Under the pieces are notes generated by a model. It saw nothing but the letters and a program-made list of their open reading frames with translations. It searched no databases and was not told the origin of the DNA. A DNA stretch of 64,000 nucleotides from a virus, in IMG/VR virus record IMGVR_UViG_3300035158_000384, positions 31,754 through 95,753 of that record. The stretch is one strand, 5' to 3'. The translations under genes and the position numbers were made by a program. This document shows, in pieces, positions 1 through 55,758 of the stretch; the first letter of the stretch is position 1, and each line of letters opens with the position of its first letter.

Positions 1-31
1 TTGGAGCCGTTCACCGTATCACTCTGCCCGT

Positions 32-59
32 ATTATACCACATCTTGACACAATGTCAA
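32..59 (-). promoter_or_regulatory. sigma70-type promoter (TTGACA-16-TATAAT, extended TG) in repeated early cassette
   Basis: Minus strand reads TTGACAttgtgtcaagatgtggTATAAT; AT-rich tract upstream; points out of the left edge of the window. Confidence 0.8.
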
Positions 60-114
60 GCCCTTTTTCAAAAAAATTTCCGGGAAGTCGGGGAAACGGC
101 ATCGGAAAAGGGTT

Positions 115-976: not shown

Positions 977-1861
977 TTACGCTAAAGATTTGGTCATATC
1001 GTGTATAACCAGCCTACCAAACCGATCCTCGGTTATACACAAGATGCCAAAGATAGGTAAAAGCTGTTTGGGAACGTGTTTGTCATGCAACCAATCGTTG
1101 GGCAACTTCCAACAGGGGCAACTCACAGCATAGAACGTATGGTTGTTGCCCACCTTTGTCCACAGCCCTGCGTAGTCGTGGCGATGTGCCCTAACGATTA
1201 CATGCGGCGCTTCCACACCCCAACGTCCAGCCACTTCCCACGCTACCTTGGCCTCTTTCTCCAAGGCTCTCAAACCATACTCCCCTGTCCCCATAGAGTG
1301 ATAAAACTGTATGCGATGCTTGCGCCAATGGATTGTGAGACATTTATGTGTGCGCGTTCCTGAGTGTTTCGCTCTCGGAATCTTGAACCGTGCGGCCAGC
1401 GTTTCGGAGTATTGCCCTGCACGCCCATCATGTGCAGGCGTACCTCTGATAATATGAAACGCACGGGCGGCATCTACTATGGGGAAGAAAAGGTCGAAAG
1501 CAGAATTGATCTGGTCCATTATCTCGGTGGAAATCAAAAACTCCGGGTGCTTCTTCCCATCGACGAAGTCACCAACGTGAACCACGTCAAAACAAGCGTT
1601 TTGAAGCTTTTTAACCCGTAACACATGAGGCAACCACTCCCACCAACAAAAATCCCAAAACTTGTGTAGTTCCAAACCTGTCTTGTGTGGGATATAGGTT
1701 GAACCTGATTCCAACTCGGTCTCTGCGGGGTTGATCCCGTGCTTTGCGCCACAATGAGTATCCGCAACGATAGGTATACCTTTGACTTTGTCGGGGATAG
1801 TGATCGTGTGCCTTGACGGTATCGTCAAGTGAGGAAAGTCGTAGTCTGCGGCTTTTCGCAT
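977..1861 (-). CDS. calcineurin-like metallophosphoesterase
   Basis: Motifs DTHCG, VGDFVDG, GTPAHD, FYH, AHRH; start trimmed to MRKAAD. Confidence 0.8.
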   Translation of the reverse strand: MRKAADYDFPHLTIPSRHTITIPDKVKGIPIVADTHCGAKHGINPAETELESGSTYIPHKTGLELHKFWDFCWWEWLPHVLRVKKLQNACFDVVHVGDFVDGKKHPEFLISTEIMDQINSAFDLFFPIVDAARAFHIIRGTPAHDGRAGQYSETLAARFKIPRAKHSGTRTHKCLTIHWRKHRIQFYHSMGTGEYGLRALEKEAKVAWEVAGRWGVEAPHVIVRAHRHDYAGLWTKVGNNHTFYAVSCPCWKLPNDWLHDKHVPKQLLPIFGILCITEDRFGRLVIHDMTKSLA

Positions 1862-1899
1862 GAGCACACCTGTCAACCGGTTGTCAAACTAACGAACCC

Positions 1900-1910: not shown

Positions 1911-1994
1911 GAATTGGGACTTCGCGTTAATTTCATATGAGTTTTAGCAGATCGACAGGTTTAGGTATTTTGACGTAACCCTTTGGTGTGCAAA

Positions 1995-2028
1995 CAAAAA
2001 GAAAAGGCCACCCTCTTCAGGTGGCCTT
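1995..2028 (-). terminator. intrinsic terminator
   Basis: AAGGCCACC-loop-GGTGGCCTT followed by TTCTTTTTG on the minus strand. Confidence 0.8.
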
Positions 2029-2278
2029 CCGGGAGTTTCCCGATTACGGATGTCACAGAGTGTACCCCCCAACTCTGCGTACACCCGGAGAGTTTTCTCG
2101 TGCAAGCGTGGGCAGCTATACCCTCAACTTACCTCACACTTGGAAGGTTTTCACGGTCGAGGGTCGGTAGCTATACCTCCAACTTTCCGTCCCCTCGGGC
2201 AGTTTTATCGGGTTTGACTGCCAACCCTCGGCGCTTCTGGCGTCCCCGCGCGTCTCCACGCGGTTTTGTTGTGTTGAT
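1995..2278 (-). ncRNA. putative structured ncRNA: tandem array of four pseudoknots
   Basis: Bounded by a perfect promoter (2285-2313) and a terminator (1995-2028); no credible ORF; 55-nt periodic hairpins whose loops are complementary to the next linker with compensatory changes. Confidence 0.7.
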
Positions 2279-2284
2279 ACTTGT

Positions 2285-2313
2285 ATTATACCCCACCCGT
2301 GACGGAATGTCAA
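2285..2313 (-). promoter_or_regulatory. consensus sigma70 promoter TTGACA-17-TATAAT
   Basis: Plus strand ATTATA 2285-2290 and TGTCAA 2308-2313, 17-bp spacer, AT-rich upstream. Confidence 0.85.
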
Positions 2314-2493
2314 GTGGTTTTTCAAATTTATTTTCCCGACCACCCAGTAGTGTGGGGGTTTATCCTTGCAGAGCCAACCAGTCAAAAATTGATTTGACCC
2401 GCTCAATCCCTGACGTCTTTCCCTTCCTTGTGTATTTTGTGCAATTTACACAAACCTTTAAGTACGAACGACTTAAAAGTTTCTTTCGCTGTT

Positions 2494-2509
2494 TGGCACG
2501 CCGTTGGCA
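2494..2509 (+). promoter_or_regulatory. sigma54 (RpoN)-like -24/-12 promoter
   Basis: TGGCACGccgtTGGCA has GG-N10-GC spacing, 50 nt upstream of the 2559 start; inverted repeats upstream at 2381-2398 and 2428-2453. Confidence 0.55.
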
Positions 2510-2558
2510 ATAGGTTTTACCGTGCTTTTATCGGGTCAAACAACGAAGGGAGCTAAAA

Positions 2559-3002
2559 ATGGAACTCGTCAACCTGACACCTCATGCCGTAAACATTGTG
2601 GACGACAATGGAAACGCTCTAAAAACCATAGAGCCCTCGGGTAAGGTCGCCCGAGTGTCCATGTCTCGCGAGGTCGTGGACCACATCAATGGTATCCCCG
2701 TGAACCGCGCTGTCACCGGTGAGCCCACCGACCTCCCCGATCCTGTCAGAGGTACTACGCTCATCGTCTCCCGAATCGTGGCGGAAGCTTGTAAGGTCCG
2801 TCATGACCTCGTCGTCCCCGACGAAACCGTCCGCGACGACAAGGGCCGGATTGTCGGATGCAAGGCGCTCGCCACCGTCTCCGACAGCCGCAACGAGTAC
2901 TACTACTGCCGGGCCTGCGGGCTTACCACCGAGCACAAGCCTGTCACAGGTCGGTGCCTCGAGTGCGGGGAGGACGACAGCTACACAGGCCCGTGCGCGT
3001 AA
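2559..3002 (+). CDS. conserved phage protein (NLTPH family) with C-terminal Zn ribbon
   Basis: MELVNLTPH...VSRIVAEA...RD..G.I.GC signature seen in many phages; CxxC...CxxC tail; GGAG RBS. Confidence 0.7.
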   Translation: MELVNLTPHAVNIVDDNGNALKTIEPSGKVARVSMSREVVDHINGIPVNRAVTGEPTDLPDPVRGTTLIVSRIVAEACKVRHDLVVPDETVRDDKGRIVGCKALATVSDSRNEYYYCRACGLTTEHKPVTGRCLECGEDDSYTGPCA

Positions 3003-3036
3003 TTTTGTCAAGCGATACAACGTGAAGGGAACAAAC

Positions 3037-3258
3037 ATGGCCACTTACGCAAACTGCCCGAAGTGTGACGGGAAGATCGAAATCAAGCTTAACTGTGAAC
3101 TGGATGCAGTCTGCGAACATTGCGGAGCGTCGTATTGTCCGTGGTGTGGAGCGGACGACAAGCACATGACCGTACATTCAGAGGACGAAGAAGTAGACCA
3201 GTACTGTGGACCCGGATGCGCCATCTGCGGGTGGGAGCATTGCGGGAGGTGTGTATAA
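3037..3258 (+). CDS. small Cys-rich zinc-finger protein
   Basis: MATYANCPKC..CEHC..CPWC..CAIC..HCGRC; AAGGGA RBS; start trimmed from the longer ORF. Confidence 0.7.
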   Translation: MATYANCPKCDGKIEIKLNCELDAVCEHCGASYCPWCGADDKHMTVHSEDEEVDQYCGPGCAICGWEHCGRCV

Positions 3259-3303
3259 GCAACGACTTTCTCACTCAGGCAATACAACCGAAAGGACGAG
3301 ACA

Positions 3304-3975
3304 ATGTTCGAGATTCACATGCACGACGCCGTTAGACTCGCGGAAACCGAACTGGACCGTGAGGACGACTACTTGGTGTACTGCGGATTCTACGGGTTCG
3401 GCGGGGCGCGGGTTCTGCCGTCGTACTCGGAGTTTACCTTCGAAGCCCTCACCGAACTCGCTCGCGAACTGCGGGACGATATATTCTGGCAGGAAGCGTA
3501 TAACTGCGGCATGCCGGAGCTTATCGTCGAACGTCTGCGGGATCAGGTCTTCGACGCTCACCCCAACTACCCCACCAAGGCCCTCGATCTCTCCGCGAAC
3601 CTCGCCAAGGCAGGCGTGGACCATTTTGTGGAATCGGACGGCTTGATAGGGTTCAGAGAGGGTGAAGAAATACACACCTACCCGGTGGACATCCCCGATC
3701 TCGACCGCAAACTCTCGCACAGCCGTGCAACATTTGGGTCCGCTCTGCGCATGTACCCGCCCGAAGTCTACGGGCACGGTGTGGTGTCGCTCCATTTCTA
3801 TCGGGAGACCACGCAATTCGTCTCCAAAACCGGACCTTATGTCCAAATCTTCACCGAGCGGATACTGGACAAGGGGGTCAAGCTTCCGAAGAACACGGAA
3901 CTTGCCTTGTCTACAGGCACGGATTTGGACAACATCGAAATGGAGGGGGATGAAATCCGATTGTGGCCGATGTAA
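3304..3975 (+). CDS. hypothetical protein
   Basis: 223-aa ORF with AGGA RBS, ending at a bidirectional terminator. Confidence 0.7.
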   Translation: MFEIHMHDAVRLAETELDREDDYLVYCGFYGFGGARVLPSYSEFTFEALTELARELRDDIFWQEAYNCGMPELIVERLRDQVFDAHPNYPTKALDLSANLAKAGVDHFVESDGLIGFREGEEIHTYPVDIPDLDRKLSHSRATFGSALRMYPPEVYGHGVVSLHFYRETTQFVSKTGPYVQIFTERILDKGVKLPKNTELALSTGTDLDNIEMEGDEIRLWPM

Positions 3976-9281: not shown

Positions 9282-9758
9282 TTACTGTTTGGGCCAGCCG
9301 GGTTCCCACGTTATCGCGTCTTCGCCCCATGTGCGAGCCACAAGCGCCGAAGCCTGCGCCGCATCCTCAACGAGGATGTTGCCGTCGTCCGTGAGCCAAA
9401 CGATGTCAGAACTGCTCGCGACACTCGCAGGGATTGCCGAAATGTCGAGAGCAACGCTCTCGCGTTCGGGAACGTAGTAGAGCACGAGCACTTCGCCCGT
9501 GGTACCCATCTTCTGACCGAACGCGCGGACGATCTGAAGGTCGGTGAGGTCCATCTGCACAGCGAGGCGGTACACCGTCGCCCGTGTGGTGTCGTCGTCC
9601 GTGAAGTGGTTGGCGATCTTGGTGATTTCGTTTACCCGGCTGTCGGGCTGGGTCTCCGCTTCTGCTCCGCATTTCGGGCAGGTGAGCCGGTCACACTTGT
9701 TGTGTATGTAGTGTGATTCACACTCACAATCCCAAAACCCATCGTGTGTTGTTGGCAT
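9282..9758 (-). CDS. hypothetical protein with N-terminal Zn finger
   Basis: FWDCEC..YIH...CPKCGA...QPDSR; GGAGAAGGGAG RBS. Confidence 0.7.
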   Translation of the reverse strand: MPTTHDGFWDCECESHYIHNKCDRLTCPKCGAEAETQPDSRVNEITKIANHFTDDDTTRATVYRLAVQMDLTDLQIVRAFGQKMGTTGEVLVLYYVPERESVALDISAIPASVASSSDIVWLTDDGNILVEDAAQASALVARTWGEDAITWEPGWPKQ

Positions 9759-9823
9759 CTTGTCTCCCTTCTCCGATTTTGGCCCCTGTTTCCGGTCGAA
9801 GCCTTCCACCGTGTTCTATTTCA

Positions 9824-9852
9824 AGTATACCACACGCTTGACACAATGTCAA
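9824..9852 (-). promoter_or_regulatory. sigma70 promoter TTGACA-17-TATACT (cassette copy 2)
   Basis: Near-identical to 32-59; -35 embedded in the 15-bp palindrome. Confidence 0.8.
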
Positions 9853-9860
9853 GCCCTTTT

Positions 9861-10127
9861 TCAAAAAAATTTCCCCGGTTCCGGGGAATCCGCATCGAAA
9901 ACCGTGCGGAGGGGTGCGGGTGTGCGCACGTCCACATCGAGCGTCTCGAGCATCATCTGCGGGTGCTTATCCCACAGGGTTAAGAGCATGCGTACCGAGA
10001 CCGGGGGGAAGTAGTTGCCTTGCTCCCACTCCCGTGCGGCGTTGGAGCTGATTCCCAACGCACGGCCCAAATCGGTGTAACTCCACCGATACTCGAGCAT
10101 GAGCCTTCGTATTAGTCCATTCTCCAT
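9861..10127 (-). CDS. XRE/Cro-like helix-turn-helix protein
   Basis: IRRLMLEYRWSYTDLGRALGISSNAAREWEQGNYFP matches the HTH_3 pattern; GGAGG RBS. Confidence 0.75.
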   Translation of the reverse strand: MENGLIRRLMLEYRWSYTDLGRALGISSNAAREWEQGNYFPPVSVRMLLTLWDKHPQMMLETLDVDVRTPAPLRTVFDADSPEPGKFF

Positions 10128-45861: not shown

Positions 45862-48800
45862 CTACGGATTGCCCTCATCGTTTGTTTTAACGATTACCTT
45901 TTCAGGTTTTCGTCCGTTGAAAAAGTGTGTGAAGCCTTTCTCATAAGCCAACTCTACAAGCTCTTCGACTGTATGAGATGTGTATGGACCGATTACCGCA
46001 GTATGTAGATATTTCATAAGGTCTAGGCTGTGTCTCACATTGACTTGTGGTTTTGTGGCTGCACATATCTCACCGGTCCAACCCCAATGATGCCCAGCTT
46101 CCACCATACGTTCAAAATCGGTTATGCGGGGAGCCCCTTCGTTCCCGAAATCGTCGAACCACGTCACAAAAACATCGGTGCGGAGTAGAACACTCAGATC
46201 GAAGTAGAAAGCACCTATATCCCCCCCTGTAAGCCCTGTTCGGAAAGTTGCAAAAATACCTTGTGTACCTCCAGAGGCGAAGTCACTCCCTACTGAACCG
46301 CCAGAGGGTTCTTTCCCCGGCTTTCCGAAGGGGTCCAAACCATAATAAGGTTTGGTATTGTTCGACAACAACGCCCCATTGTTTACCAACATGAGGTACA
46401 ATACGTCTCCTGCATTACCTTTCAAAGGACGATGTGCCACGAACGTATTAGAAGGGAACACCTCCACCACATCATCACGAGTCACACCCAAACGCGCCTT
46501 GACATTCCAACCCGCGTCTTTTCCGTCATATTCCCCCTCTGGAAGCCATCCGGGTAGTTGATCCAGAGTCTCTTCGGTAACGTCAGGATACTTGTCTGCG
46601 AGTTTCGCTGCCACGCGCTTACGCAGCAAAGACAAAGCCTTCTCGGTATCGCCCTCCCGATAAGCATCCATAGCTTCAGCAAACTCTTCCTCAACCTCTG
46701 CGCTGACTACACCACCAGCATAAATGTGCCCTGCAACCGCCTTGGGCTGCCAACTCTTCCCTTTGTCTTGAAGCACAACCAACTGTTTGGCTAAGAACAG
46801 CACCTCTTCGTCTTCAGAGGTAGCCGGGGTCATAGGCATTTCTGTCAAGTCCTGCACAAGGTGCAGAAGTCGCGCAACCGTTTCAGGTGAAGGTTCGCCG
46901 GGGATAAGACCCCAACATTGTCCACGGTGGCCGCGCAAGTCTGCCATAACTTCAGACCACGGTGTTTCCCCCGGAGGCGTTATATACAAACGGGCTTGCG
47001 TAGTTTTGTCCTCTAAAACAAACTGTGAGTGGGAAGTGGCGTTGAACATGGCTTTGTTTCCACCCGCCGCCCAATGTTTTTTGCCGTATGCGTCCTCGAT
47101 CTCTTTTTTGAATTGGACCCCTGTTTCGTCCGCCTCAATTACCCCATCAGCAACATTACAATTAGGCCATTCTGCTCCTGCCCCTTTGAAAGTCACGTTG
47201 AACGGTTTTTCTTCAGGAACCTCTTCTACTACTTCCTCTTCCTCTTCCTCTTCCTCCGGGGGTTTTTCCCATTGGTAAAAGTGCTCCTTTATACCCTTCC
47301 CCAAGTAAGTGTCCATATCCCCAACTACGCTTTCCATCTTCTCGCAATAGTCAATGTAGCTGTCGCACATCTTCGCGATGTCCGAATACTTATCGCCGGT
47401 TTCGGGATGTTTTTCTTCAAGCTTGGCTACAGCCTCTTCCTGCAAATCGATCAAGTCCGACTTTAAGTTTTTTCCGGCTGTGTGCGTTAGCGGCGTGGAA
47501 ACCACCGGGGACACCTTGGATTCATTCAAGTTTTTATCGTTCGCGACCGCCAAGTGGTAGTTGATATTGCCCACCGCAACGCGGATAGCTTTCCAATACC
47601 CCTTCAACACGTCGATCTTCAAAGCGTCAATCTTGTCCGTCGCATCGCTGGCCTTGACATGCACCAGATTCGCCTCGGGTAAAAGCTTACCGGTCAATCT
47701 CATACCAGCATCGTGGGAAATTCGGAAATGTATCAAGGTGGCGTCCACTACATCACCTTTTGCGGTGCGCATCTGTACCTTGCGCACCATGACCGCTTGC
47801 TCCTCAATCACATCGCGGTCTATCTGCACAGATTTGCCACGCCAACCAGAGTTTTTGGCTTCCTCAATAATCTTGGCTTCCTTCTCTGTAAAGCCCACCG
47901 CTTCCACAGAGTCACCTAGATCACCTATACCCGGCAGAGGCGCAAGCCACTCAACCTCGCCCACGGAAGGCCACTTGAAGTCCGCCCGTAGATTTTTAAG
48001 CACTTTCGTCCAGTTTGCAAGGTACTTATCGCGGCGGCTGAACAACTCGTTGTAGACGGCTTCGGTTTGACTTTCCGTCAAACCCTTCTTCTCTAAAACT
48101 GGGTCAATTTTGGAGCGCAGGAAACCGTCCGTCATACCTTGTATGTTGGCGATGACACGACGCATGGCTTTCCATGCAAGTGTCGGTATCTCTGCCTCTT
48201 CCATACCCCATGACTTGAGTAGCTGCTTTGCATAACCTTGCCCAAAGTTGCCTGCGGGGTGGAAATCCGGCTTTAGAGATTCGCCCGACGACTGACCCTG
48301 CAACGCGCCTTTGATAATGAATTTGAAAGCCTGTCCACGGTCGATGGGAATAAGCTTCCCGCCCTTCATTAACCAATTGCCGCTGTGACCGTCATGATCG
48401 CCCACAAACATGTCAAAGGCATGCTGTGCAAGTAGTTCTGCTTTGTTGTCGTCACTCAAGCTCTCGGGATTCGCGGGTGGGGGATTGTCGGGTTCAACAA
48501 ACGGCTGTAGACTACCGAGGCGCTTGGTGCCGTGCATATCTGCGTTTACAACGCGAACAGGCACGTTGTTACCCTTCACCGCTTCAGCAAGCTCAAACGC
48601 GGCGGCGTCAACGTAAGGTCTGAAGTCTTCCGCGCTTGTAGGTGCAGTCTTGAAAAAGTATTTGTTGCCTTCTTCGTCAACCAATATGGTGTTGGGTTTT
48701 GACCCTCCGGGTGAAGCCTCCCCTGTTTCCGTCAAGGTGTTTGGATTGAGCGTCAGTAGTTTGTTGTGCAAATCAGGCGACAACGGCGATTTCAACTTTA

Positions 48801-51800
48801 TCTTCTTCGCCGCTTTTGACGTTGTGTCAAACTCCGGGTCTGCCGCAACCCCCTGCAACGCACCTTTCGTTTTGAGGTCCGCAACGTGCTTGAGCCAATT
48901 CTCTACCGCCTTCACCTCTCCGGGCGTTACCTTGTTCGTGAACAGCTTGGCAACCTTTGGAGCCATATCCTTCGTTATGGTCTCATATCCTTCAATCCCG
49001 GAATCCGCACACCACGTCTGGAAGGTTTTCAATGGTACGTTCAACTTTCCAGTAGTCGCCCAAGCAGACATGGCTTTGTCTTTCACACTCGAACCGGTCG
49101 TGTACTTGGCGGTTTCATACTGATACTGTTGTTCCTGCCCCTCTTCGAGCAGCTCAATTTTAGCTACGTTGAACCAGACATGGTACGGAGGCTGTGAAGG
49201 GTTTATTTTGGTGTTAGCGACGTACTCACCGACCCTCTCCTCACCCTCCGCAGTCGTCAATATGAACCTGCCTAACGACACGGAAGGATCAGAACCCGTC
49301 AAAACATCCCCATCAGCATCATAAAGACGTACTAACTTCCCGTAATAGTCTCCCGGCTCATACTTTATTGCTGTTGTGTCTGTCCCTACCGCTGCGTTCA
49401 ACACCTTTAGTGCTTCTGGCGGCAACGGGACGCCAGCAGTCCAAGCCAAAGTCTGAACCATATCGGACACGCCATCCGTAGATGGAGGTGCTGTCTCCAC
49501 CTGTTTGGGTGTTGTCTCCTTTTTACCCACCAGTATGAAGTCAGAAGGGTATTTTACCACCATACCCTCTTCGTCATATATCGTGAACCACTCAATGGCT
49601 ATGCCAACCTTACTTATCATACTTACTATCTCGCGCGGTTTCGGTTCCTCCACGTAACCCAACACGGTAAATACGTCATCACCACCCACCTCCGTTTTGA
49701 ATACATCGTCAACCTTTGGGTAGCCTTCTGGTGAAGGAATAAATTTAAGCTCGCTGATGTCGTTTATGAAGACATTGGAATCCACAATCGCCTTTTGTAT
49801 TGCAGGGTTAGCTGGGGGGCCTATTACTGGCTCTTGTTCTTCTTTTGTTTGTTCGGGTTCGACAGCATCCGATCCCACCAATTTGAAAGCGCCGGGGTCT
49901 CTAAACACCTTCAAAACCTCGTCGTCATCAACATCTTTCTCGTATAGGGACAAAGTATACGCTAGTACCTCGGAGCTTTCAGCGAAACCTATTCCGTAGA
50001 TCATATGCTTTAGCTCATCCCTATAACGGAAATACCCGACCACCTTACTGACTTCAATATGGCTCGGAGCAAATGTAACATCGAAGCCCACAGGCGGGTA
50101 GCCTTCAGGAACATCAACCCACTCAAATGTGGACATAGAATCAGGAACAAGATCGGACAAAGCGTCTGTTACTGCGTCGGCGTCCTTCTGCGACAACGTA
50201 TATGGAGCAGTTGTCACCAAAGCAGCCCCTTCGGTTGAAACCTCAAAATTGTCGGGGTCTGTATCAGCCACCGCGTAGTAACCACCCTCTTCGGAAGGTA
50301 CCTCAAATATCGGGTTGACATGCTCGGCTTCCGTACCTTTCACCACATAATGCACATACGCCACGAGCTTTGACGCTTTGGGCAATTCCGAATGGTTGAC
50401 CATAGAACCAATCTCGGGGAGCCCTTGACCTGTCATGTTTTGTGAGCTTAAAAAGCTCCAATCCACCGTCTTGTAGTGGCCCGAACACCACGCTTGCAAA
50501 TCAGGTTTAACGGAGTAATTGGGCTTGCCCCTCGGCGCTGTTATGCCCTTGTTGGCGGGATCATTAACCTCCGAGACTGTGGGCGCGGCATCTGTCTCCG
50601 CAGCCTTGACTTCGTTATCCTGCGGCCATCCATGCTTTGCTACCCATTTGCTTGCATCGACGTAAATTTTCTTGTCGCGATCTGTGAGCTTCTTCCACCA
50701 CTTCTGTGTCTGCGCCGCGGCTTTTGGAAGGATGGGCTTGATCAAGACCGAATCTGTTTCCTTACCTGCTCCGTGCGGTTTGCCTCCTTTGATGTCCCCG
50801 ATGAAAAAACGGGAGACAGAACTTCCGCTGTGGTAGTCTCCGAGGTACGCCACAGGTCGAACAGCTAATCCGGTTTCCTCTCGCACTTCTCGAACCGCCG
50901 CCTTCGTGAACCCTTCACCTTCGTCAACAGTACCTTTCGGAAACGTGAGTGTGTAACCCCCAAACTCGTTCATAGGATGAACCATAACAAAACACGGAAC
51001 CGGGCTTGTGAACAACTTACCTTTACCGGAGAAGGTGGTACCTGCCGGAACAACTGCTACAACGCCTGCGGACAAATGACCCTTACTCGGTGTTTTTACC
51101 TGTGGTTGCTGTACGGGTGTGGGTTGATCATACCCTTTTGGAAGGTCCGAAGGTAGCGTGACGTTTGTTCCCGGCACCGTAACCGTCAATTCTGCACTTC
51201 CTGCCTTCTTACCAAACGTCACCTCACCCGTATCCGTGTCAATGTCCGTATCTCCGCTGTACGCGATAGTCCATTCGTTTTTATCAGCTAAAGAGGACAT
51301 GTCTACTGTCCCAACATCTTCTTTCTTCGGTGTGTATGTTTTTGTCTTTGCGGGCACCAGTACTCCCGCAAGATTTCCACCAGACCCTGTACCAAGCACC
51401 CACCCCAAAAGCCGATGAGAGGTTCCGGTTGCAACTCTTTTGATCTTTGTGTTGACAAAGAAAGGCGCATCTCCCGGAGCATCAATGAAGACATTCCCCG
51501 TATGCTTTGACCAAGCCTTGGCCACCTTGCTCAAACTGTATGACAATGTCGGAAACCCTGATTTACCCGGTTTGGAGTAGAGAGTTTCTGCAACGTCAGG
51601 ATCAAAACCAAGCACAGGAGCCTTATTGAGATTAACAGCGGCATATGCTCCATAAATTTCATCTGGACGTAAAGCTACAAAGTAATGAGGTGTCGTACCG
51701 TCGGGTCCGAAAGCATAGCCGTGAACAACAATTTCGGTGAAACTACCTGTTAAGGGTTCGAGTAATGTTCCAATATCTAATGTGAAAGCCTCGCTCTCCC

Positions 51801-54800
51801 CTTTCGTTGCAGGGAGGTAGTGCTTCCCCTTGTCCGGTGATAAATTAGCAAATGCTTTAAGCGCAACCGCTGTTCCGAAGACGTCATCAGGTGTTTTCGT
51901 ACCTTCAACCGCAGTTTTGGGAAGCGGCTGTGCGTTAGCAGCAACTGTACCGTCGAAACTATAAACCTCATGATTCTCATTAAGGCTTTTAGCGTGCTGT
52001 CCTGTGATCAAGCCTGTGGATTTAAGAGATGTGATGTAATACGGTGTGGAATTGTTGGTTAAGGCATAACCTAAGATCGTCAGACCGTCTCCCAATCCGC
52101 CCTTAGTCCGAACTACATCCCCTATGTTATATATAAAATCCCCGGACATACTTTTACTAGCCAACCCCAAACTAGACGATTTCTTCTGTACGTATTCCTG
52201 CGCCTCCGGGGTACCACACATCTCAGGATCAGTTTTCATTGTCTGCGCATCACTACCGGGTGCAGGTATCGCGTCGCTGGCTATCTCTTTTGAAAAACCT
52301 GCTATCTTATCGGTATTGGACGAAACACAGGAAGCAAAGAAAATAATCCCAGTATCAGGCTCCTGCGCCATGTAGTGTGGCTTACCGTCGACCTTTGCGT
52401 AACCCAATATACTGTAGACCTTGCCTGTGGCTGATTCAAGTAGCGTACCTATAGGGTATTTGTATGCAATGTTGGCATCTTGTGCTTCAAAAGTATACTC
52501 GAAATCCCACCACGTCGCGTTCTTAGCGTAGTTCAACCCTTTCTGCGTCACGGAGGGTGAAAACGCCACAGAGTCCTCGGCTCCGGGCTCCGGTTTTGGT
52601 GCAACAGGTGCATAGTTGGCTGCCGGGGCCGCTCCTTTTTCCAACGCCAAAACAGGCACAACTTTGAGTACAAAAATTTTCGCCTCTGCGGTTGTGTTTT
52701 TGGTTTTGTACTCTGTCCAAGCGGTTGTTCCAAGTATAGCCTGAGTGGTGTTTGTTTTGGTACTCTTTCCGTAACCCAGCACCTCATACAAACCGGTATT
52801 CCCGTCTATGGAGAGATTAACCGCGTCACCAACCGCAAACGGAGCATCTGTGGGTGTGTCGATGGGGTCTATATTCTTGGTCTCAATGTAGTTTACAAGA
52901 TCGCTCAAACGCGCAAACGTAACAGGTATGTGGTCCACAGGCTTGGCAAGGAATTGCTTTTCTACGGTCGAAAGATTGTAGGTATAAACCTTTGGAGGTT
53001 TCGACATGGATGAAGCGCTCAGGAAAACGACATGACACCCGTGAACAGGCAACGGATCGTTCACAACGATAGCATAGCCATCTCCATTAGCCTTCTCCAA
53101 GACATCAAACTTCTTGTACATGAAATCAGATTCAGGTTCCGGCAACGGGCCTTCAAACGGCGTCAAAGCACCGTCATTGTAAGCAGTCAGGGCAACAACG
53201 TCGGAAACAAATTCGTAGTTACCGGCGACATGTTTTAATGCAATCATCACCTCGGACGTTTGGTAGTTCAACGCCTGAACCACGGTGACAGGGTCGTCAT
53301 AAAACAGCCAATTGGAACCTTCAACAAAGGTTTCGACTCCTGCTTCCTGTGCTGTTTTAGTGTCTTTCAGCGGGTAAGCGGAGATGTCTGCCAACGCCAC
53401 TTGGTTTGCATACTGCGCAGCAAACTCAAGTTTGACTCCTGCATCAAGATCAGGCTTTTCTACCTCGGGCACAAATGGTTGAAATTTAGCGTCCGCGTAC
53501 AAACCTGCCAGAACCGCTTCGCTCGCGACACGGTAAAACTCCCCAGCGTCATCCGTCAACGAGATGTAAGTGGTTAGTTCCTCCGCCAAGTACTGCACAC
53601 GGTAAGCCGATCCAAGGAAAACCTTCTTGTTGTTCTCCTCTACCCACACACCATTTAATATCTCGTCGCTTTGGTGCTCTGCGCTCAAAGCCTTGTAAAA
53701 CGCGGTGTCTTCCAAACCAATCTGTGTGATGGTCTTGTTGGCGGCATCGCCTGCTCCCAACAGAGCCTTGAGTGTGTCCAAATCCACGGAGCCGTCTATC
53801 TTCGGAGCTTTCTCTCCCCGCGCCACTTCCTTCAACTTTTCGGTTGTGTAATAACCAGTCACGACGTCGTCGTAGTAGGGTACAGGATCGCTTTGGTTGA
53901 AGGCCACAAAAACGGTTTCACTCGGTTTGGTCTTGTAAGCCCCCTCGAGTCGCCAAATGGCGTTTGTTGGAGTGTGTAACCACAGACTGCCCTCGTCGGC
54001 GGTGTCACCACCCTCTATGGCTGTTTGTACAAACTCGGTTTTCGCCAACGGATAAGGCTCTATACTTTCCGGTGGAACCCCTACCGTCTGTTTGATCCCT
54101 TGTTCGACCGATGCGGGGACGCTTTTGGTAGTGATAGCTTCAGGCTCTTCGCCTTCTTCCTCTTCCCCTGCAACCGTGTCTTGTGCTTCCTTCTTTTTGT
54201 AGTTAGTCCAAGGCATGTCGATATGCCCTTGAACCACCTCAATTGTGTCTTCCTCCCACATATCCACAATTTGATCATCCCAAACCGCTAAATTCTTGCC
54301 TGTGGTCGCTTGTGTGAGAAGAAAAACAGGATCGCCGTCCACGTCCTGAAAAACGGTGGTTACTGTAACTTGGTTGCCATCCGCGTCTTCAAGCACAGAC
54401 CCTATACCTACGTCTGTCCCCGCTTCTTGACAAAGTTCGCCAAACTCGGTGCTCCCAACCGGAACAAACTTCACGTCTTCCAAGCCGTCAAGTTCCGGGT
54501 CGTCGGACTGGGCCACATATGCTTTGACCTGTTTCTCTATCTGTTTTCCACCCGCGCTTTGCTGGAGCTTGTAGCCTTCTTTCGGTTTAGGGTTCGTCTT
54601 GACCCACTCCGAAAACGTGGTGTACATATCCGACGCGACCGACAGCGTTGTCAAAATCGTCTGCCAATCCCCTTTTTCCCACGCTTTAATGAGCGTGTTG
54701 AATGGGCCTCCTGACAGCTTTCGTTTTTGAATCCACTTCTTTAATTTCTTCAATGCGGACCACACGGCGGGCGCTTCCATGTTCTGCCCCAAGTAAGCCG

Positions 54801-55758
54801 CACGGTACATGTCATAGGTAAGCTTGACCAGCTTATCTACCTGCGTTTGGTTCATGCCGGAAGGAACGGAGTAAAACTGACCATCCGGGTGGAAATACGC
54901 CAGATAAATGTTGATGGGATCGTTGTAGTGGAGGGGGTTGCGCTTTGTGCCTATGTCTTGATAAGACGGAGGGGGTTTAGATTCGGAATTTACGCCGCCT
55001 ATCTTGAGGTACGCACGGTCTTCCACCGCGAGCACGAAGTACGCCATCATCGTGCCCCATATTTCCCACAAGTATTTTTTGGAGGTTCCGTACTGCTCCT
55101 TGCCTGCCTTGGGATAAATGCTCTCATTCATGTCGTTGAGGTCTTGCAGAGCCGCTTCTTTGTAGTCCGCATCGGACGTGTTGCTCAAAATCCCTTGAAC
55201 GACCTCGTACACATCGGGCTTGTGTCGCCGACGAATCACGCCATTTTCAACCGCTTCCGCAGATTCGCCGAACGCAGCCTCAAAATCGAGGGTGTGCCCC
55301 GTATGTTGTTCGTACAAATCGACGAAACGAGCGGCGGTGGGAAGGTCAAAACCGTAGTCCCACCGCCACGCTTCTGCTTGGAACCTTTCGCAAACCTGTT
55401 CAGGCTCCAACCCGTATAACGCACCGACCCTGTCTTCGTCAACTAGCCCCTGAGCGGATGCTTCAGCATACAGCCGAGCCGCCCACGCTTTTCCCGGCTC
55501 TGCACCGTGCAATGACCACGAGCGCACAACCGGGGACACTTCCTCCGTCAAGAGTTCAGATAAAGCTTGGGCGTAGTCCTCTTCTGCCGCTTGAAAAAAA
55601 CGGTGCATACGCGACACCGTTTGAAGGCCCACACGACCCTCTGACAGCTTTTTCGCGACGGAGTGACCTGTCACACCCTCCAAGGCCGGAAAACGATCCT
55701 CACAAGCAGACAGGGCGTTTGTGGCGTGTTTCTTGACGGAATCAGGTACGATATACAC
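45862..55758 (-). CDS. 3298-aa polyvalent protein: head-morphogenesis-type N-terminus, beta-barrel repeats, Nudix hydrolase, HipA/PI3K-like kinase, ART-like C-terminus
   Basis: Exact Nudix box GTVDEGEGFTKAAVREVREETGL; kinase GGS..KYFFK..GSLQ..FD.FVGDHDGHSGN...IDRG; C-terminal H...GALLS...GG...F...D.F....D.FG. Confidence 0.8.
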   Translation of the reverse strand: MYIVPDSVKKHATNALSACEDRFPALEGVTGHSVAKKLSEGRVGLQTVSRMHRFFQAAEEDYAQALSELLTEEVSPVVRSWSLHGAEPGKAWAARLYAEASAQGLVDEDRVGALYGLEPEQVCERFQAEAWRWDYGFDLPTAARFVDLYEQHTGHTLDFEAAFGESAEAVENGVIRRRHKPDVYEVVQGILSNTSDADYKEAALQDLNDMNESIYPKAGKEQYGTSKKYLWEIWGTMMAYFVLAVEDRAYLKIGGVNSESKPPPSYQDIGTKRNPLHYNDPINIYLAYFHPDGQFYSVPSGMNQTQVDKLVKLTYDMYRAAYLGQNMEAPAVWSALKKLKKWIQKRKLSGGPFNTLIKAWEKGDWQTILTTLSVASDMYTTFSEWVKTNPKPKEGYKLQQSAGGKQIEKQVKAYVAQSDDPELDGLEDVKFVPVGSTEFGELCQEAGTDVGIGSVLEDADGNQVTVTTVFQDVDGDPVFLLTQATTGKNLAVWDDQIVDMWEEDTIEVVQGHIDMPWTNYKKKEAQDTVAGEEEEGEEPEAITTKSVPASVEQGIKQTVGVPPESIEPYPLAKTEFVQTAIEGGDTADEGSLWLHTPTNAIWRLEGAYKTKPSETVFVAFNQSDPVPYYDDVVTGYYTTEKLKEVARGEKAPKIDGSVDLDTLKALLGAGDAANKTITQIGLEDTAFYKALSAEHQSDEILNGVWVEENNKKVFLGSAYRVQYLAEELTTYISLTDDAGEFYRVASEAVLAGLYADAKFQPFVPEVEKPDLDAGVKLEFAAQYANQVALADISAYPLKDTKTAQEAGVETFVEGSNWLFYDDPVTVVQALNYQTSEVMIALKHVAGNYEFVSDVVALTAYNDGALTPFEGPLPEPESDFMYKKFDVLEKANGDGYAIVVNDPLPVHGCHVVFLSASSMSKPPKVYTYNLSTVEKQFLAKPVDHIPVTFARLSDLVNYIETKNIDPIDTPTDAPFAVGDAVNLSIDGNTGLYEVLGYGKSTKTNTTQAILGTTAWTEYKTKNTTAEAKIFVLKVVPVLALEKGAAPAANYAPVAPKPEPGAEDSVAFSPSVTQKGLNYAKNATWWDFEYTFEAQDANIAYKYPIGTLLESATGKVYSILGYAKVDGKPHYMAQEPDTGIIFFASCVSSNTDKIAGFSKEIASDAIPAPGSDAQTMKTDPEMCGTPEAQEYVQKKSSSLGLASKSMSGDFIYNIGDVVRTKGGLGDGLTILGYALTNNSTPYYITSLKSTGLITGQHAKSLNENHEVYSFDGTVAANAQPLPKTAVEGTKTPDDVFGTAVALKAFANLSPDKGKHYLPATKGESEAFTLDIGTLLEPLTGSFTEIVVHGYAFGPDGTTPHYFVALRPDEIYGAYAAVNLNKAPVLGFDPDVAETLYSKPGKSGFPTLSYSLSKVAKAWSKHTGNVFIDAPGDAPFFVNTKIKRVATGTSHRLLGWVLGTGSGGNLAGVLVPAKTKTYTPKKEDVGTVDMSSLADKNEWTIAYSGDTDIDTDTGEVTFGKKAGSAELTVTVPGTNVTLPSDLPKGYDQPTPVQQPQVKTPSKGHLSAGVVAVVPAGTTFSGKGKLFTSPVPCFVMVHPMNEFGGYTLTFPKGTVDEGEGFTKAAVREVREETGLAVRPVAYLGDYHSGSSVSRFFIGDIKGGKPHGAGKETDSVLIKPILPKAAAQTQKWWKKLTDRDKKIYVDASKWVAKHGWPQDNEVKAAETDAAPTVSEVNDPANKGITAPRGKPNYSVKPDLQAWCSGHYKTVDWSFLSSQNMTGQGLPEIGSMVNHSELPKASKLVAYVHYVVKGTEAEHVNPIFEVPSEEGGYYAVADTDPDNFEVSTEGAALVTTAPYTLSQKDADAVTDALSDLVPDSMSTFEWVDVPEGYPPVGFDVTFAPSHIEVSKVVGYFRYRDELKHMIYGIGFAESSEVLAYTLSLYEKDVDDDEVLKVFRDPGAFKLVGSDAVEPEQTKEEQEPVIGPPANPAIQKAIVDSNVFINDISELKFIPSPEGYPKVDDVFKTEVGGDDVFTVLGYVEEPKPREIVSMISKVGIAIEWFTIYDEEGMVVKYPSDFILVGKKETTPKQVETAPPSTDGVSDMVQTLAWTAGVPLPPEALKVLNAAVGTDTTAIKYEPGDYYGKLVRLYDADGDVLTGSDPSVSLGRFILTTAEGEERVGEYVANTKINPSQPPYHVWFNVAKIELLEEGQEQQYQYETAKYTTGSSVKDKAMSAWATTGKLNVPLKTFQTWCADSGIEGYETITKDMAPKVAKLFTNKVTPGEVKAVENWLKHVADLKTKGALQGVAADPEFDTTSKAAKKIKLKSPLSPDLHNKLLTLNPNTLTETGEASPGGSKPNTILVDEEGNKYFFKTAPTSAEDFRPYVDAAAFELAEAVKGNNVPVRVVNADMHGTKRLGSLQPFVEPDNPPPANPESLSDDNKAELLAQHAFDMFVGDHDGHSGNWLMKGGKLIPIDRGQAFKFIIKGALQGQSSGESLKPDFHPAGNFGQGYAKQLLKSWGMEEAEIPTLAWKAMRRVIANIQGMTDGFLRSKIDPVLEKKGLTESQTEAVYNELFSRRDKYLANWTKVLKNLRADFKWPSVGEVEWLAPLPGIGDLGDSVEAVGFTEKEAKIIEEAKNSGWRGKSVQIDRDVIEEQAVMVRKVQMRTAKGDVVDATLIHFRISHDAGMRLTGKLLPEANLVHVKASDATDKIDALKIDVLKGYWKAIRVAVGNINYHLAVANDKNLNESKVSPVVSTPLTHTAGKNLKSDLIDLQEEAVAKLEEKHPETGDKYSDIAKMCDSYIDYCEKMESVVGDMDTYLGKGIKEHFYQWEKPPEEEEEEEEVVEEVPEEKPFNVTFKGAGAEWPNCNVADGVIEADETGVQFKKEIEDAYGKKHWAAGGNKAMFNATSHSQFVLEDKTTQARLYITPPGETPWSEVMADLRGHRGQCWGLIPGEPSPETVARLLHLVQDLTEMPMTPATSEDEEVLFLAKQLVVLQDKGKSWQPKAVAGHIYAGGVVSAEVEEEFAEAMDAYREGDTEKALSLLRKRVAAKLADKYPDVTEETLDQLPGWLPEGEYDGKDAGWNVKARLGVTRDDVVEVFPSNTFVAHRPLKGNAGDVLYLMLVNNGALLSNNTKPYYGLDPFGKPGKEPSGGSVGSDFASGGTQGIFATFRTGLTGGDIGAFYFDLSVLLRTDVFVTWFDDFGNEGAPRITDFERMVEAGHHWGWTGEICAATKPQVNVRHSLDLMKYLHTAVIGPYTSHTVEELVELAYEKGFTHFFNGRKPEKVIVKTNDEGNP

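What the first reader, a model, noticed from the sequence alone, without database searches (positions are those of the whole stretch)
1995..2313. Stand-alone ncRNA made of four tandem covarying pseudoknots (55-nt period): candidate anti-defence decoy RNA
Seen directly: a perfect TTGACA-17-TATAAT promoter and a clean intrinsic terminator bracket about 285 nt with no credible ORF. On the minus strand there are four units. Unit 0 is GGGUU-GGCAGU-CA-AACCC-GAUAAA-ACUGCC. Unit 1 is a long stem with loop GGAGGU(AU), then CGUGAAA-ACCUUC. Unit 2 has loop GAGGGU(AU), then CGAGAAA-ACUCUC. Unit 3 has loop GGGGGU(AC), then CGGGAA-ACUCCC. In every unit the 6-nt loop pairs with the hexamer after the A-rich linker, and both sides change together. 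The long stems of units 1-3 differ in sequence (CGAGGG/CCCUCG, CAAGUGUG/CACGCUUG, CGGGUGU/ACAUCCG) but keep pairing and an unpaired A at the same place. Landmarks recur at exactly 55 nt (CAACT at 2070/2125/2180; linker ends at 2100/2155/2210). Structure is conserved while sequence is not. Established: type III toxin-antitoxin antitoxins (ToxI/CptI/TenpI) are tandem H-type pseudoknots with A-rich linkers followed by a terminator, and phage PhiTE uses pseudo-ToxI repeats to escape abortive infection. Inference: no toxN-like gene follows (the next gene is a phosphoesterase with its own promoter), so this may be an orphan, diversified antitoxin-mimic panel or a new protein-sponging or nuclease-blocking RNA class.
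Basis: partly seen in the sequence, partly recalled or inferred. Interest (0 to 1): 0.88.

Follow-up and report, generated by a model that had tools for sequence, protein, structure and literature searches.

The report
Orphan tandem-pseudoknot RNA gene, large phage
An uncultured large phage carries a probable gene for a tightly folded RNA of about 285 bases that makes no protein; it is built from one small knot and three diverged 55-base knot-like modules, matches no catalogued RNA family, was found in no other accessible genome, and its function is unknown.

Summary
The sequence facts hold. A perfect TTGACA-17-TATAAT promoter (2313-2285, minus strand) and a 12-bp intrinsic terminator (2030-2002) bracket about 284 nt with no credible ORF. 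The promoter belongs to the same class that drives this phage's early genes.

The RNA folds far better than shuffles (z = -5.5). It has two leader hairpins, one compact H-type pseudoknot (U0) and three 55-57-nt paralogous hairpin modules (U1-U3). Among the modules, 7 of 21 proposed pairs change on both sides and still pair.

The loop-tail pseudoknot is possible in 4 of 4 units but not proven:
- purine-rich loops and pyrimidine-rich tails pair easily by composition;
- two non-cognate combinations pair as well as the cognate ones;
- a nested fold scores better under a generic pseudoknot penalty.

No homologue was found in Rfam, GenBank phages, IMG/VR, JGI metagenomes, GTDB genomes or five related phage records. 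No expression data could be obtained.

The type III antitoxin reading fails its defining tests: the repeats are not near-identical, there is no ToxN-like gene, and there is no ToxI match.

Best reading: a real, early-expressed, stable structured RNA with repeated modules, probably a multivalent binding or decoy RNA. That mechanism is inferred only.

This scan has noted similar orphan multi-pseudoknot phage RNAs on other DNA. None shares sequence with this one.

The parts
2285..2343 (-). Sigma70-type promoter: UP-like A/T tract plus GAAAAA, -35 TTGACA (2313-2308), 17-nt spacer, -10 TATAAT (2290-2285)
   Evidence: 12 of 12 matches. Alignment A6 shows it is invariant at most positions from about -60 to -7 with four early-gene promoter cassettes of the same genome.
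2264..2278 (-). Predicted 5' end (about 2278) and unpaired CA-rich leader AUCAACACAACAAAA
   Evidence: Inferred from the position of the -10 hexamer. Sequence. The start site was not measured.
2230..2263 (-). Two leader hairpins: H1 2263-2246 (7 bp, GAGA loop) and H2 2245-2230
   Evidence: Minimum-free-energy fold and hairpin-only structure evaluation.
2198..2227 (-). U0, a compact H-type pseudoknot: S1 GGGUU/AACCC, S2 GGCAGU/ACUGCC, junction CA, A-rich loop GAUAAA
   Evidence: Sequence. S2 duplex -8.5 kcal/mol and specific to its own tail. Tail-shuffle p = 0.0065. The nested fold already pairs loop and tail.
2143..2197 (-). U1, 55-nt module: three-part hairpin (6+3+4 bp with unpaired A's), loop GGAGGU (2180-2175), linker ACCGUGAAA, tail ACCUUC (2148-2143)
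   Evidence: (68.7 bits to model R1).
2088..2142 (-). U2, 55-nt module: hairpin (8+3+4 bp, bulged A), loop GAGGGU (2125-2120), linker CACGAGAAA, tail ACUCUC (2093-2088)
   Evidence: (68.6 bits).
2031..2087 (-). U3, 57-nt module: hairpin (7+8 bp, bulged A), loop GGGGGU (2069-2064), linker UAAUCGGGAA, tail ACUCCC (2036-2031)
   Evidence: (58 bits).
1992..2030 (-). Intrinsic terminator: 12-pair stem GGAAGGCCACCU.../...GGGUGGCCUUUU, then a U-rich tract
   Evidence: Only terminator-like sub-threshold Rfam hits fall here.

Best explanation
This is a separate gene for a non-coding RNA of about 285 nt in an uncultured large myovirus. Host RNA polymerase transcribes it from the phage's early-promoter class, and a strong intrinsic terminator ends it.

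The RNA is a chain of folded modules: two small leader hairpins, one compact H-type pseudoknot (U0) and three diverged copies of a 55-nt module (U1-U3). Each module is a long interrupted hairpin. Its G-rich apical loop (G-N3-G-U) can pair with an A-C-N3-C hexamer that follows an A-rich linker.

All four modules keep the same core around that junction (GUUG...GU-MW-A, then RAAA(A)C), while the helices have been re-coded. I therefore infer that the RNA is a stable, multivalent platform offering three or four copies of one recognition surface to a single partner. The partner is most likely a protein of the host or the phage that the RNA sequesters or organises early in infection.

Shown here: the transcription signals, the absence of coding potential, the strong folding and the compensatory changes in the hairpins. 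Inferred: that the pseudoknots actually form, that the RNA accumulates, and the sponge or decoy action.
For: - Promoter and terminator are present. The promoter shares nearly all positions from -60 to -7 with four cassettes that front early genes carrying ribosome-binding sites.
- No coding signal on either strand.
- The fold has z = -5.47 on the minus strand against -3.2 on the plus strand. At least ten G-U cells in the model would be A-C on the other strand.
- Model R1 finds exactly three units in the 95.7-kb genome, at 58-69 bits, and nothing else above 12 bits in the 64-kb window.
- Paralogue covariation: 92% of cells paired, 7 of 21 pairs with changes on both sides, and the pseudoknot helix 100% paired with 2 of 6 pairs doubly changed.
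- Loop-tail complementarity is present in 4 of 4 units in the same register. A tail-only hairpin alternative exists in only 2 of 4 units.
- My hairpin-loop/A-rich/complement descriptor finds U0-U2 as the only tandem cluster in the genome.
- The gene lies among early-promoter cassettes and small accessory genes, the usual place for host-takeover functions.
Against: - No homologue was found anywhere, so there is no between-genome covariation.
- Two nearly complete related phages lack both the RNA and its flanking genes.
- For U1-U3, pseudoknot pairing is only weakly beyond composition (p about 0.17 each), and two non-cognate pairings are as stable as the cognates.
- The nested minimum-energy fold (-124.6 kcal/mol) uses the tails differently, for example GAGGGUU of U0 with AACCUUC of U1. 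It beats the four-pseudoknot model if a generic 9.6 kcal penalty per knot is charged (-105.8), although not if no penalty is charged (-144.2).
- In U1-U3 a 9-10-nt linker must span a hairpin of about 15 bp. That is possible only near full extension or with a bent stem (inference).
- No partner protein is identified.
Confidence: 0.5

Rival explanations
1. Degradation-proof RNA. Each module is a mechanical block to processive or scanning ribonucleases, in the way viral xrRNAs use a stem-loop whose apical loop pairs with the 3' flank. The RNA would persist, or would stall and titrate a host RNase (RNase J, RNase E scanning, or a defence nuclease).
For: - Plant-virus class 3 xrRNAs are stem-loops (P1, P2) of about 50 nt with an apical-loop to 3'-end pseudoknot of 3-9 bp, and flavivirus xrRNAs occur in tandem (PMC12397905, read; abstracts). 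The predicted unit layout and size here are similar.
- The linker CGUGAAAAC loosely resembles the coremin spacer GUUAAACUAC (PMC6546385).
Against: - Nothing lies downstream of the last module to protect except the terminator.
- The hairpins here are 14-16 bp, far longer than xrRNA P1+P2.
- There is no YGAD tetraloop hairpin as coremin requires.
- No xrRNA family of Rfam matches.
- The host, and therefore its RNase set, is unknown.
Confidence: 0.12
2. Type III antitoxin or antitoxin mimic. The modules bind and neutralise ToxN/CptN/TenpN-type abortive-infection endoribonucleases of the host.
For: - Tandem pseudoknot-type units with A-rich linkers, followed by a terminator.
- Phage-borne pseudo-ToxI is an established escape route (general knowledge, not checked here).
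Against: - The units are diverged and 55 nt long, not near-identical 34-45-nt repeats.
- There is no ToxI match in the RNA.
- No ToxN-family gene is present in the held genome.
- The downstream gene is a metallophosphoesterase.
Confidence: 0.06
3. Cis-acting leader. The folded RNA acts on the transcribing polymerase or senses a ligand to control read-through of its terminator into the phosphoesterase operon, like put/EAR-type antitermination or a tandem riboswitch.
For: - Same orientation as the downstream genes, with a terminator directly after the last module.
- H-type pseudoknots with A-rich tails are a common aptamer design, for example preQ1-I (general knowledge).
Against: - The 299-aa gene starts 134 nt further on, behind its own extended -10 promoter (TGGTATAAT at about 1905-1897).
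- The terminator is strong (12 pairs plus a U tract).
- No riboswitch family matches.
- Four modules for one terminator has no precedent that I know of.
Confidence: 0.1
4. Ribosome-related RNA derived from, or convergent with, the tmRNA pseudoknot string (one small knot, then three of about 55 nt).
For: - The layout and sizes resemble PK1 and PK2-PK4 of tmRNA (general knowledge).
- The loops are Shine-Dalgarno-like (GGAGGU) and the tails anti-SD-like.
Against: - ARAGORN finds no tmRNA.
- There is no Rfam tmRNA hit at E <= 10.
- There is no tRNA-like domain, no tag reading frame and no CCA end.
Confidence: 0.05
5. No function of its own: a recent local triplication behind a spare copy of the early promoter, or a decaying cassette whose folding is incidental.
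For: - Seen in a single genome and absent from five related records.
- The pseudoknot pairing of U1-U3 is largely explained by composition.
Against: - The units have diverged to about 70-77% identity while keeping 92% of pairs, with seven double changes.
- The promoter and terminator are perfect.
- The fold z-score is -5.5.
Confidence: 0.12
6. The region is protein-coding: the 176-aa plus-strand ORF 1983-2513, or small minus-strand ORFs.
For: An open frame of 176 codons exists on the plus strand, in the same frame as the real gene at 2559-3002.
Against: - The codon-usage score is -0.19 bits per codon, against +0.08 to +0.25 for real genes.
- There is no PHROG hit.
- It has a TTG start without a ribosome-binding site, inside the terminator.
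- A stop codon separates it from the 147-aa gene, which has its own AAGGGAG site.
Confidence: 0.02

Closest known systems
tmRNA pseudoknot string (PK1, PK2-PK4 of SsrA)
   Same: A run of back-to-back H-type pseudoknots with no spacers: one of about 30 nt and three of about 50-60 nt, with A-rich third loops and a total size near 300 nt.
   Different: There is no tRNA-like domain, no tag ORF and no match to tmRNA models. Here the small knot directly abuts the three large ones.
Type III toxin-antitoxin antitoxins (ToxI RF02519, CptI, TenpI)
   Same: Tandem structured units with A-rich linkers, ended by a terminator ahead of a protein gene. They act as protein-binding RNAs.
   Different: The units are 55 nt long and diverged rather than near-identical 34-45-nt repeats. 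There is no toxin gene and no model match.
Class 3 plant-virus xrRNAs and tandem flavivirus xrRNAs (PMC12397905)
   Same: A stem-loop of two or three stacked helices whose apical loop pairs with the 3' flank, about 50 nt per element, with elements used in tandem.
   Different: The stems here are much longer, and no conserved T-loop or ring-forming nucleotides could be checked. This is a stand-alone bacterial-virus RNA with nothing downstream to protect. Nuclease resistance is untested.
preQ1-I type riboswitch aptamers (H-type knot with an A-rich tail in the minor groove)
   Same: U0 has the same order of elements: 5-bp hairpin, A-rich tail, and a 3' end pairing with the loop.
   Different: S2 is 6 bp with no first loop. 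There is no RF00522 match and no regulated ORF.
Pseudoknotted leaders of this phage's own early mRNAs
   Same: Same promoter class and the same design: a 4-bp S1, a 6-bp S2 and a 6-nt A-rich third loop (GAAACA against GAUAAA).
   Different: The leaders carry one knot ahead of a ribosome-binding site. The RNA carries four knots and no ORF. Sequence similarity is limited to the linker.

Membership tests
Type III antitoxin RNA (ToxI/CptI/TenpI) | Array of near-identical direct repeats of about 34-45 nt | tested here: not met
   The units are 33, 55, 55 and 57 nt long. Mean column identity among U1-U3 is 77%. TRF reports no such array.
Type III antitoxin RNA (ToxI/CptI/TenpI) | ToxN/CptN/TenpN-type endoribonuclease gene directly downstream | tested here: not met
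   PF13958 is absent from the 95.7-kb record. The next gene is a calcineurin-like metallophosphoesterase with conserved DxH, GD and H motifs. The record is only about 47% complete.
Type III antitoxin RNA (ToxI/CptI/TenpI) | Match to the ToxI covariance model | tested here: not met
   No hit in 1900-2450 at E <= 10. RF02519 gives only two sub-threshold hits elsewhere in the genome.
Type III antitoxin RNA (ToxI/CptI/TenpI) | Terminator between the RNA and the downstream protein gene | tested here: met
   Terminator at 2030-2002.
tmRNA | tRNA-like domain with acceptor end, and a tag reading frame | tested here: not met
   ARAGORN finds none. Rfam gives no hit at gathering score or at E <= 10.
tmRNA | String of H-type pseudoknots | tested here: inconclusive
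   Four are predicted but unproven.
Class 3 xrRNA (plant-virus type) | Stem-loop with stacked P1/P2 and an apical-loop to 3'-end pseudoknot | tested here: inconclusive
   The same topology is predicted for U1-U3. The stems are far longer than in the described elements (PMC12397905).
Class 3 xrRNA (plant-virus type) | Ring around the 5' end and resistance to 5'-3' exoribonuclease | not testable with these tools
   This needs a 3D structure or an enzyme assay.
Coremin-type xrRNA | 3-4-bp hairpin with a YGAD tetraloop, a conserved 10-nt spacer, then a second hairpin | tested here: not met
   There is no such tetraloop hairpin. Only the linker loosely resembles the spacer (one search compared with PMC6546385).
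preQ1-I riboswitch (RF00522) | Match to the family model and a downstream regulated gene | tested here: not met
   No hit at E <= 10. No ORF follows within the transcript.

The most novel reading that the evidence does not exclude
The RNA is a tandem-pseudoknot sponge for the factor that acts on the single pseudoknots in the leaders of this phage's own early mRNAs, or for a host defence or RNA-decay protein that recognises such knots. Four diversified copies on one abundant early transcript would titrate that factor and set the timing or survival of early gene expression. That would be a new class of phage regulatory or anti-defence RNA.
Probability: 0.1. Interest if true: 0.8.

Novelty: new variant of a known kind. 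Interest (0 to 1): 0.45.

Why it matters
Large phages keep turning up orphan RNAs built from chains of pseudoknots, and none has a known function. This example is compact and its modules are cleanly delimited. It has a textbook promoter and terminator, and it sits in a genome whose early mRNA leaders carry a knot of the same design, which points to a testable partner-sharing hypothesis. If the modules bind a host nuclease, a defence protein or a translation factor, this would be a new RNA-based host-takeover or counter-defence mechanism. It would also be a ready-made stable multivalent RNA scaffold. As it stands it is a single-genome candidate without expression data, so its value is as a lead.

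Tried and rejected
**Searches for homologues of the RNA (all negative)**
- Rfam at gathering score over the whole window, and at E <= 10 over 1900-2450. Only terminator look-alikes appeared.
- blastn against GenBank phages.
- Four DNA-pattern scans of IMG/VR:
  - single unit: two chance hits in AT-rich coding DNA;
  - promoter cassette: none;
  - three spaced tails: 119+ loci, none passing my descriptor or model R1. The one 22-bit hit, in L125, lies in coding-looking DNA;
  - the 16-mer AGTTGRRGGTATAGCT: 118+ loci, mostly V-G-G-I-A codons and one tRNA, none passing R1.
- Tandem-unit pattern in JGI metagenomes: one chance hit, L016. In GTDB genomes: none.

**Searches through flanking genes and related phages**
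- The 299-aa gene has one 74%-identical relative, P0002, on a 14-kb NCBI contig. That contig could not be fetched:
  - P0002 was absent from genome contigs, metagenome contigs and phages;
  - no accession is given.
- Its next relative, P0003, is not in IMG/VR. The family alignment was too diverse to scan with.
- Major-capsid relatives at 60-69% identity gave five records, two of them complete. All lack the RNA (descriptor) and both flanking genes.

- Relatives cannot be drawn for a virus record.
- The AlphaFold model of the 299-aa protein was unusable, with pLDDT 31.6. PDB sequence search gave nothing.

**Ideas considered and dropped**
- CsrA/RsmA sponge: a GGA loop motif occurs in only one unit.
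- Pistol ribozyme: there is a 6-bp loop knot, but no P2/P3 arrangement and no Rfam hit.
- CRISPR-repeat mimic: the units are not repeats.
- phi29-type pRNA: the phage is a large myovirus.
- tRNA-like acceptor mimic: GGUAUAGCU resembles tRNA positions 5-12, but no tRNA model fits.
- A genome-wide compact-pseudoknot descriptor was not clearly enriched over shuffles, at 44 hits against 12-42, so it says nothing about a 'knot regulon'.

Full report
**What the window is.** The window is bases 31754-95753 of a 95.7-kb IMG/VR virus record that CheckV rates about 47% complete. Almost all genes lie on the minus strand. PHROG hits identify a tail sheath, baseplate wedge, major head protein and head protease, so it is a large myovirus. 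The record carries at least 12 tRNA genes upstream of the window.

**The observation.** On the minus strand, a 12-of-12 match to TTGACA-17-TATAAT lies at 2313-2285. A terminator with a 12-pair stem and a U tract lies at 2030-2002. A start near 2278 gives an RNA of about 284 nt.
- U0 at 2230-2198 is GGGUU-GGCAGU-CA-AACCC-GAUAAA-ACUGCC.
- U1 (2197-2143), U2 (2142-2088) and U3 (2087-2031) are long hairpins with loops GGAGGU, GAGGGU and GGGGGU. After A-rich linkers come ACCUUC, ACUCUC and ACUCCC.
- AGUUG recurs every 55 nt.

**The promoter is real.** It is not a lone consensus match. Aligned with four promoter-leader cassettes that front early genes in the same genome, it shares most positions from about -60 to -7. 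These include an A/T tract, GAAAAA, CTTGACATT and G(T/G)GGTATA. The transcript diverges from the cassettes after the -10 element.

**The region is non-coding.**
- The 176-codon plus-strand frame 1983-2513 has no PHROG hit.
- Its codon-usage score is -0.19 bits per codon, while neighbouring real genes score +0.08 to +0.25.
- The small minus-strand frames inside the RNA score at most +0.03.
- The real plus-strand gene starts at 2559 behind its own AAGGGAG site. The RNA gene and that gene are therefore divergent neighbours.

**Folding.**
- The minus-strand RNA folds at -124.6 kcal/mol against -94.4 +/- 5.5 for shuffles, z = -5.47. The plus strand gives z = -3.2.
- Each of U1-U3 folds alone into a three-part hairpin.
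- A covariance model of the unit (R1) finds exactly these three units in the phage record, at 58-69 bits. In the 64-kb window the next best hit scores 11 bits.
- Treating U1-U3 as paralogues, 92% of cells in the hairpin-plus-pseudoknot model pair, against 39-47% when partners are slid.
- Seven of 21 pairs carry changes on both sides, reached by 2 of 500 shuffles. The six-pair loop-tail helix is 100% paired with two doubly changed pairs.
- About ten G-U cells fit only the minus strand.

The hairpins are therefore well supported for a three-sequence sample.

**The pseudoknots are plausible but not proven.**
- In favour: the complementarity is present in 4 of 4 units in one register. U0 is specific and significant (-8.5 kcal/mol; tail-shuffle p = 0.0065).
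- Against, composition: for U1-U3 the loops are purine-rich and the tails pyrimidine-rich. Shuffled tails pair as well about 17% of the time.
- Against, specificity: U1 loop with U3 tail, and U2 loop with U1 tail, are as stable as the cognates.
- Against, energy: the nested minimum-energy fold uses the tails otherwise. It is more stable than the four-knot model under a generic penalty (-124.6 against -105.8), though less stable than that model without a penalty (-144.2).
- Against, geometry (my inference): a 9-10-nt linker must span a stem of about 15 bp.

**Relatives.** None was found.
- Rfam, GenBank phages, four IMG/VR pattern scans (filtered), one JGI metagenome scan and one GTDB scan gave only chance matches.
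- Five capsid-related phage records, two of them complete, lack the RNA and both flanking genes.
- The one lead is a 74%-identical copy of the downstream gene on an NCBI contig.
- Read evidence was unavailable.

**Context.**
- The next gene, 977-1876, belongs to a large, mostly viral family of calcineurin-like metallophosphoesterases. The DxH, GD and histidine motifs are invariant. It has its own extended -10 promoter.
- Further down lies an NT5C-type deoxynucleotidase.
- No ToxN-family gene is present in the record.
- The early-gene leader cassettes each contain a textbook H-type pseudoknot: CGGU, GGCUYC, ACCG, GAAACA, GGRGCC. This is the same design as U0 and sits behind the same promoter class.

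**Interpretation.** The best-supported statement is that this is a real, early-expressed, stand-alone structured RNA made of repeated modules. The modules keep a common core while their helices are re-coded. I infer that it presents several copies of one surface to a partner, as a sponge, decoy or scaffold. That step is inference only.

Rivals:
- an xrRNA-like degradation block. The topology is similar to class 3 xrRNAs (PMC12397905), but the coremin requirements are not met (PMC6546385);
- a type III antitoxin mimic, whose defining features fail;
- a cis-acting leader for the downstream operon;
- a tmRNA-like string without the tRNA and tag parts;
- a functionless recent triplication.

**Comparison with earlier notes of this scan.** Other follow-ups have described orphan phage RNAs of about 255-295 nt with three or four pseudoknots on other DNA. 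None shares short words with this stretch, so kinship is unshown.

**Verdict.** The antitoxin link is not supported, and the function is open. It is a single-genome candidate of moderate interest.

Noticed in passing
window 1-89 and 9720-9882; genome 28.3-28.9 kb (L018 12355-12856): Four copies of a promoter-leader cassette: an A/T tract, GAAAAAGGGCTTGACATTGTGTCAAG, then TATAMT. Its leader can form an H-type pseudoknot (CGGU / GGCUYC / ACCG / GAAACA / GGRGCC) just upstream of the ribosome-binding site GGAGAAGGGAG of unrelated small genes. All four S2 variant combinations still pair.
   Followed up: partly
window 2381-2558 and 2559-3975 (+): This is the only plus-strand island. On the plus strand, TGGCACGCCGTTGGCA (about 2491-2508) has sigma54-like GG-N10-GC spacing, about 50 nt before the start codon at 2559. 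It shares the 245-bp divergent control region with the RNA promoter.
   Followed up: no
window 2559-3002 (+): A 147-aa protein beginning MELVNLTPH matches the C-terminal half of PHROG families 30542 and 21731 (unknown function). It has scattered relatives in Paenibacillus, Bacillus, Thermobifida and Microcystis phages and in archaeal viruses.
   Followed up: partly
window 977-1876 (-): A 299-aa protein with no Pfam or PHROG hit nonetheless belongs to a family of 963 relatives, mostly viral calcineurin-like metallophosphoesterases. D34, H36, G97, D98, H144, H188, H226 and H228 are invariant. Some relatives are fused into proteins of 600-770 aa.
   Followed up: partly
window 2175-2184 and 2120-2129 (-): GGUAUAGCU in the U1 and U2 loops equals the acceptor-end/U8-A9/D-stem stretch of many tRNAs; one IMG/VR pattern hit, L266, is a tRNA. 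The loop-tail helix would then resemble a pseudoknotted acceptor stem. No tRNA model fits, so this may be coincidence.
   Followed up: partly
window 2264-2278 and 1992-2001 (-): The RNA starts with an unpaired CA-rich run (AACACAACAAAAC, an A-R-N-type repeat) and ends in a U-rich tail after the terminator. These are the two features typical of Hfq-binding small RNAs.
   Followed up: no
window 45862-55758 (-): A 3298-codon open reading frame, by far the largest in the window. It was not characterised.
   Followed up: no
genome 3.8-7.5 kb (L017 3810-7496): A cluster of 12 tRNA genes (Leu, Pro, Ala, Ser, Ile, Tyr, Arg x2, Glu, Asp, Val, Met). A TROVE (Ro60) search of the whole record found nothing at E <= 0.001, which does not support an earlier first-reader note of a phage Ro60 gene here.
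   Followed up: partly
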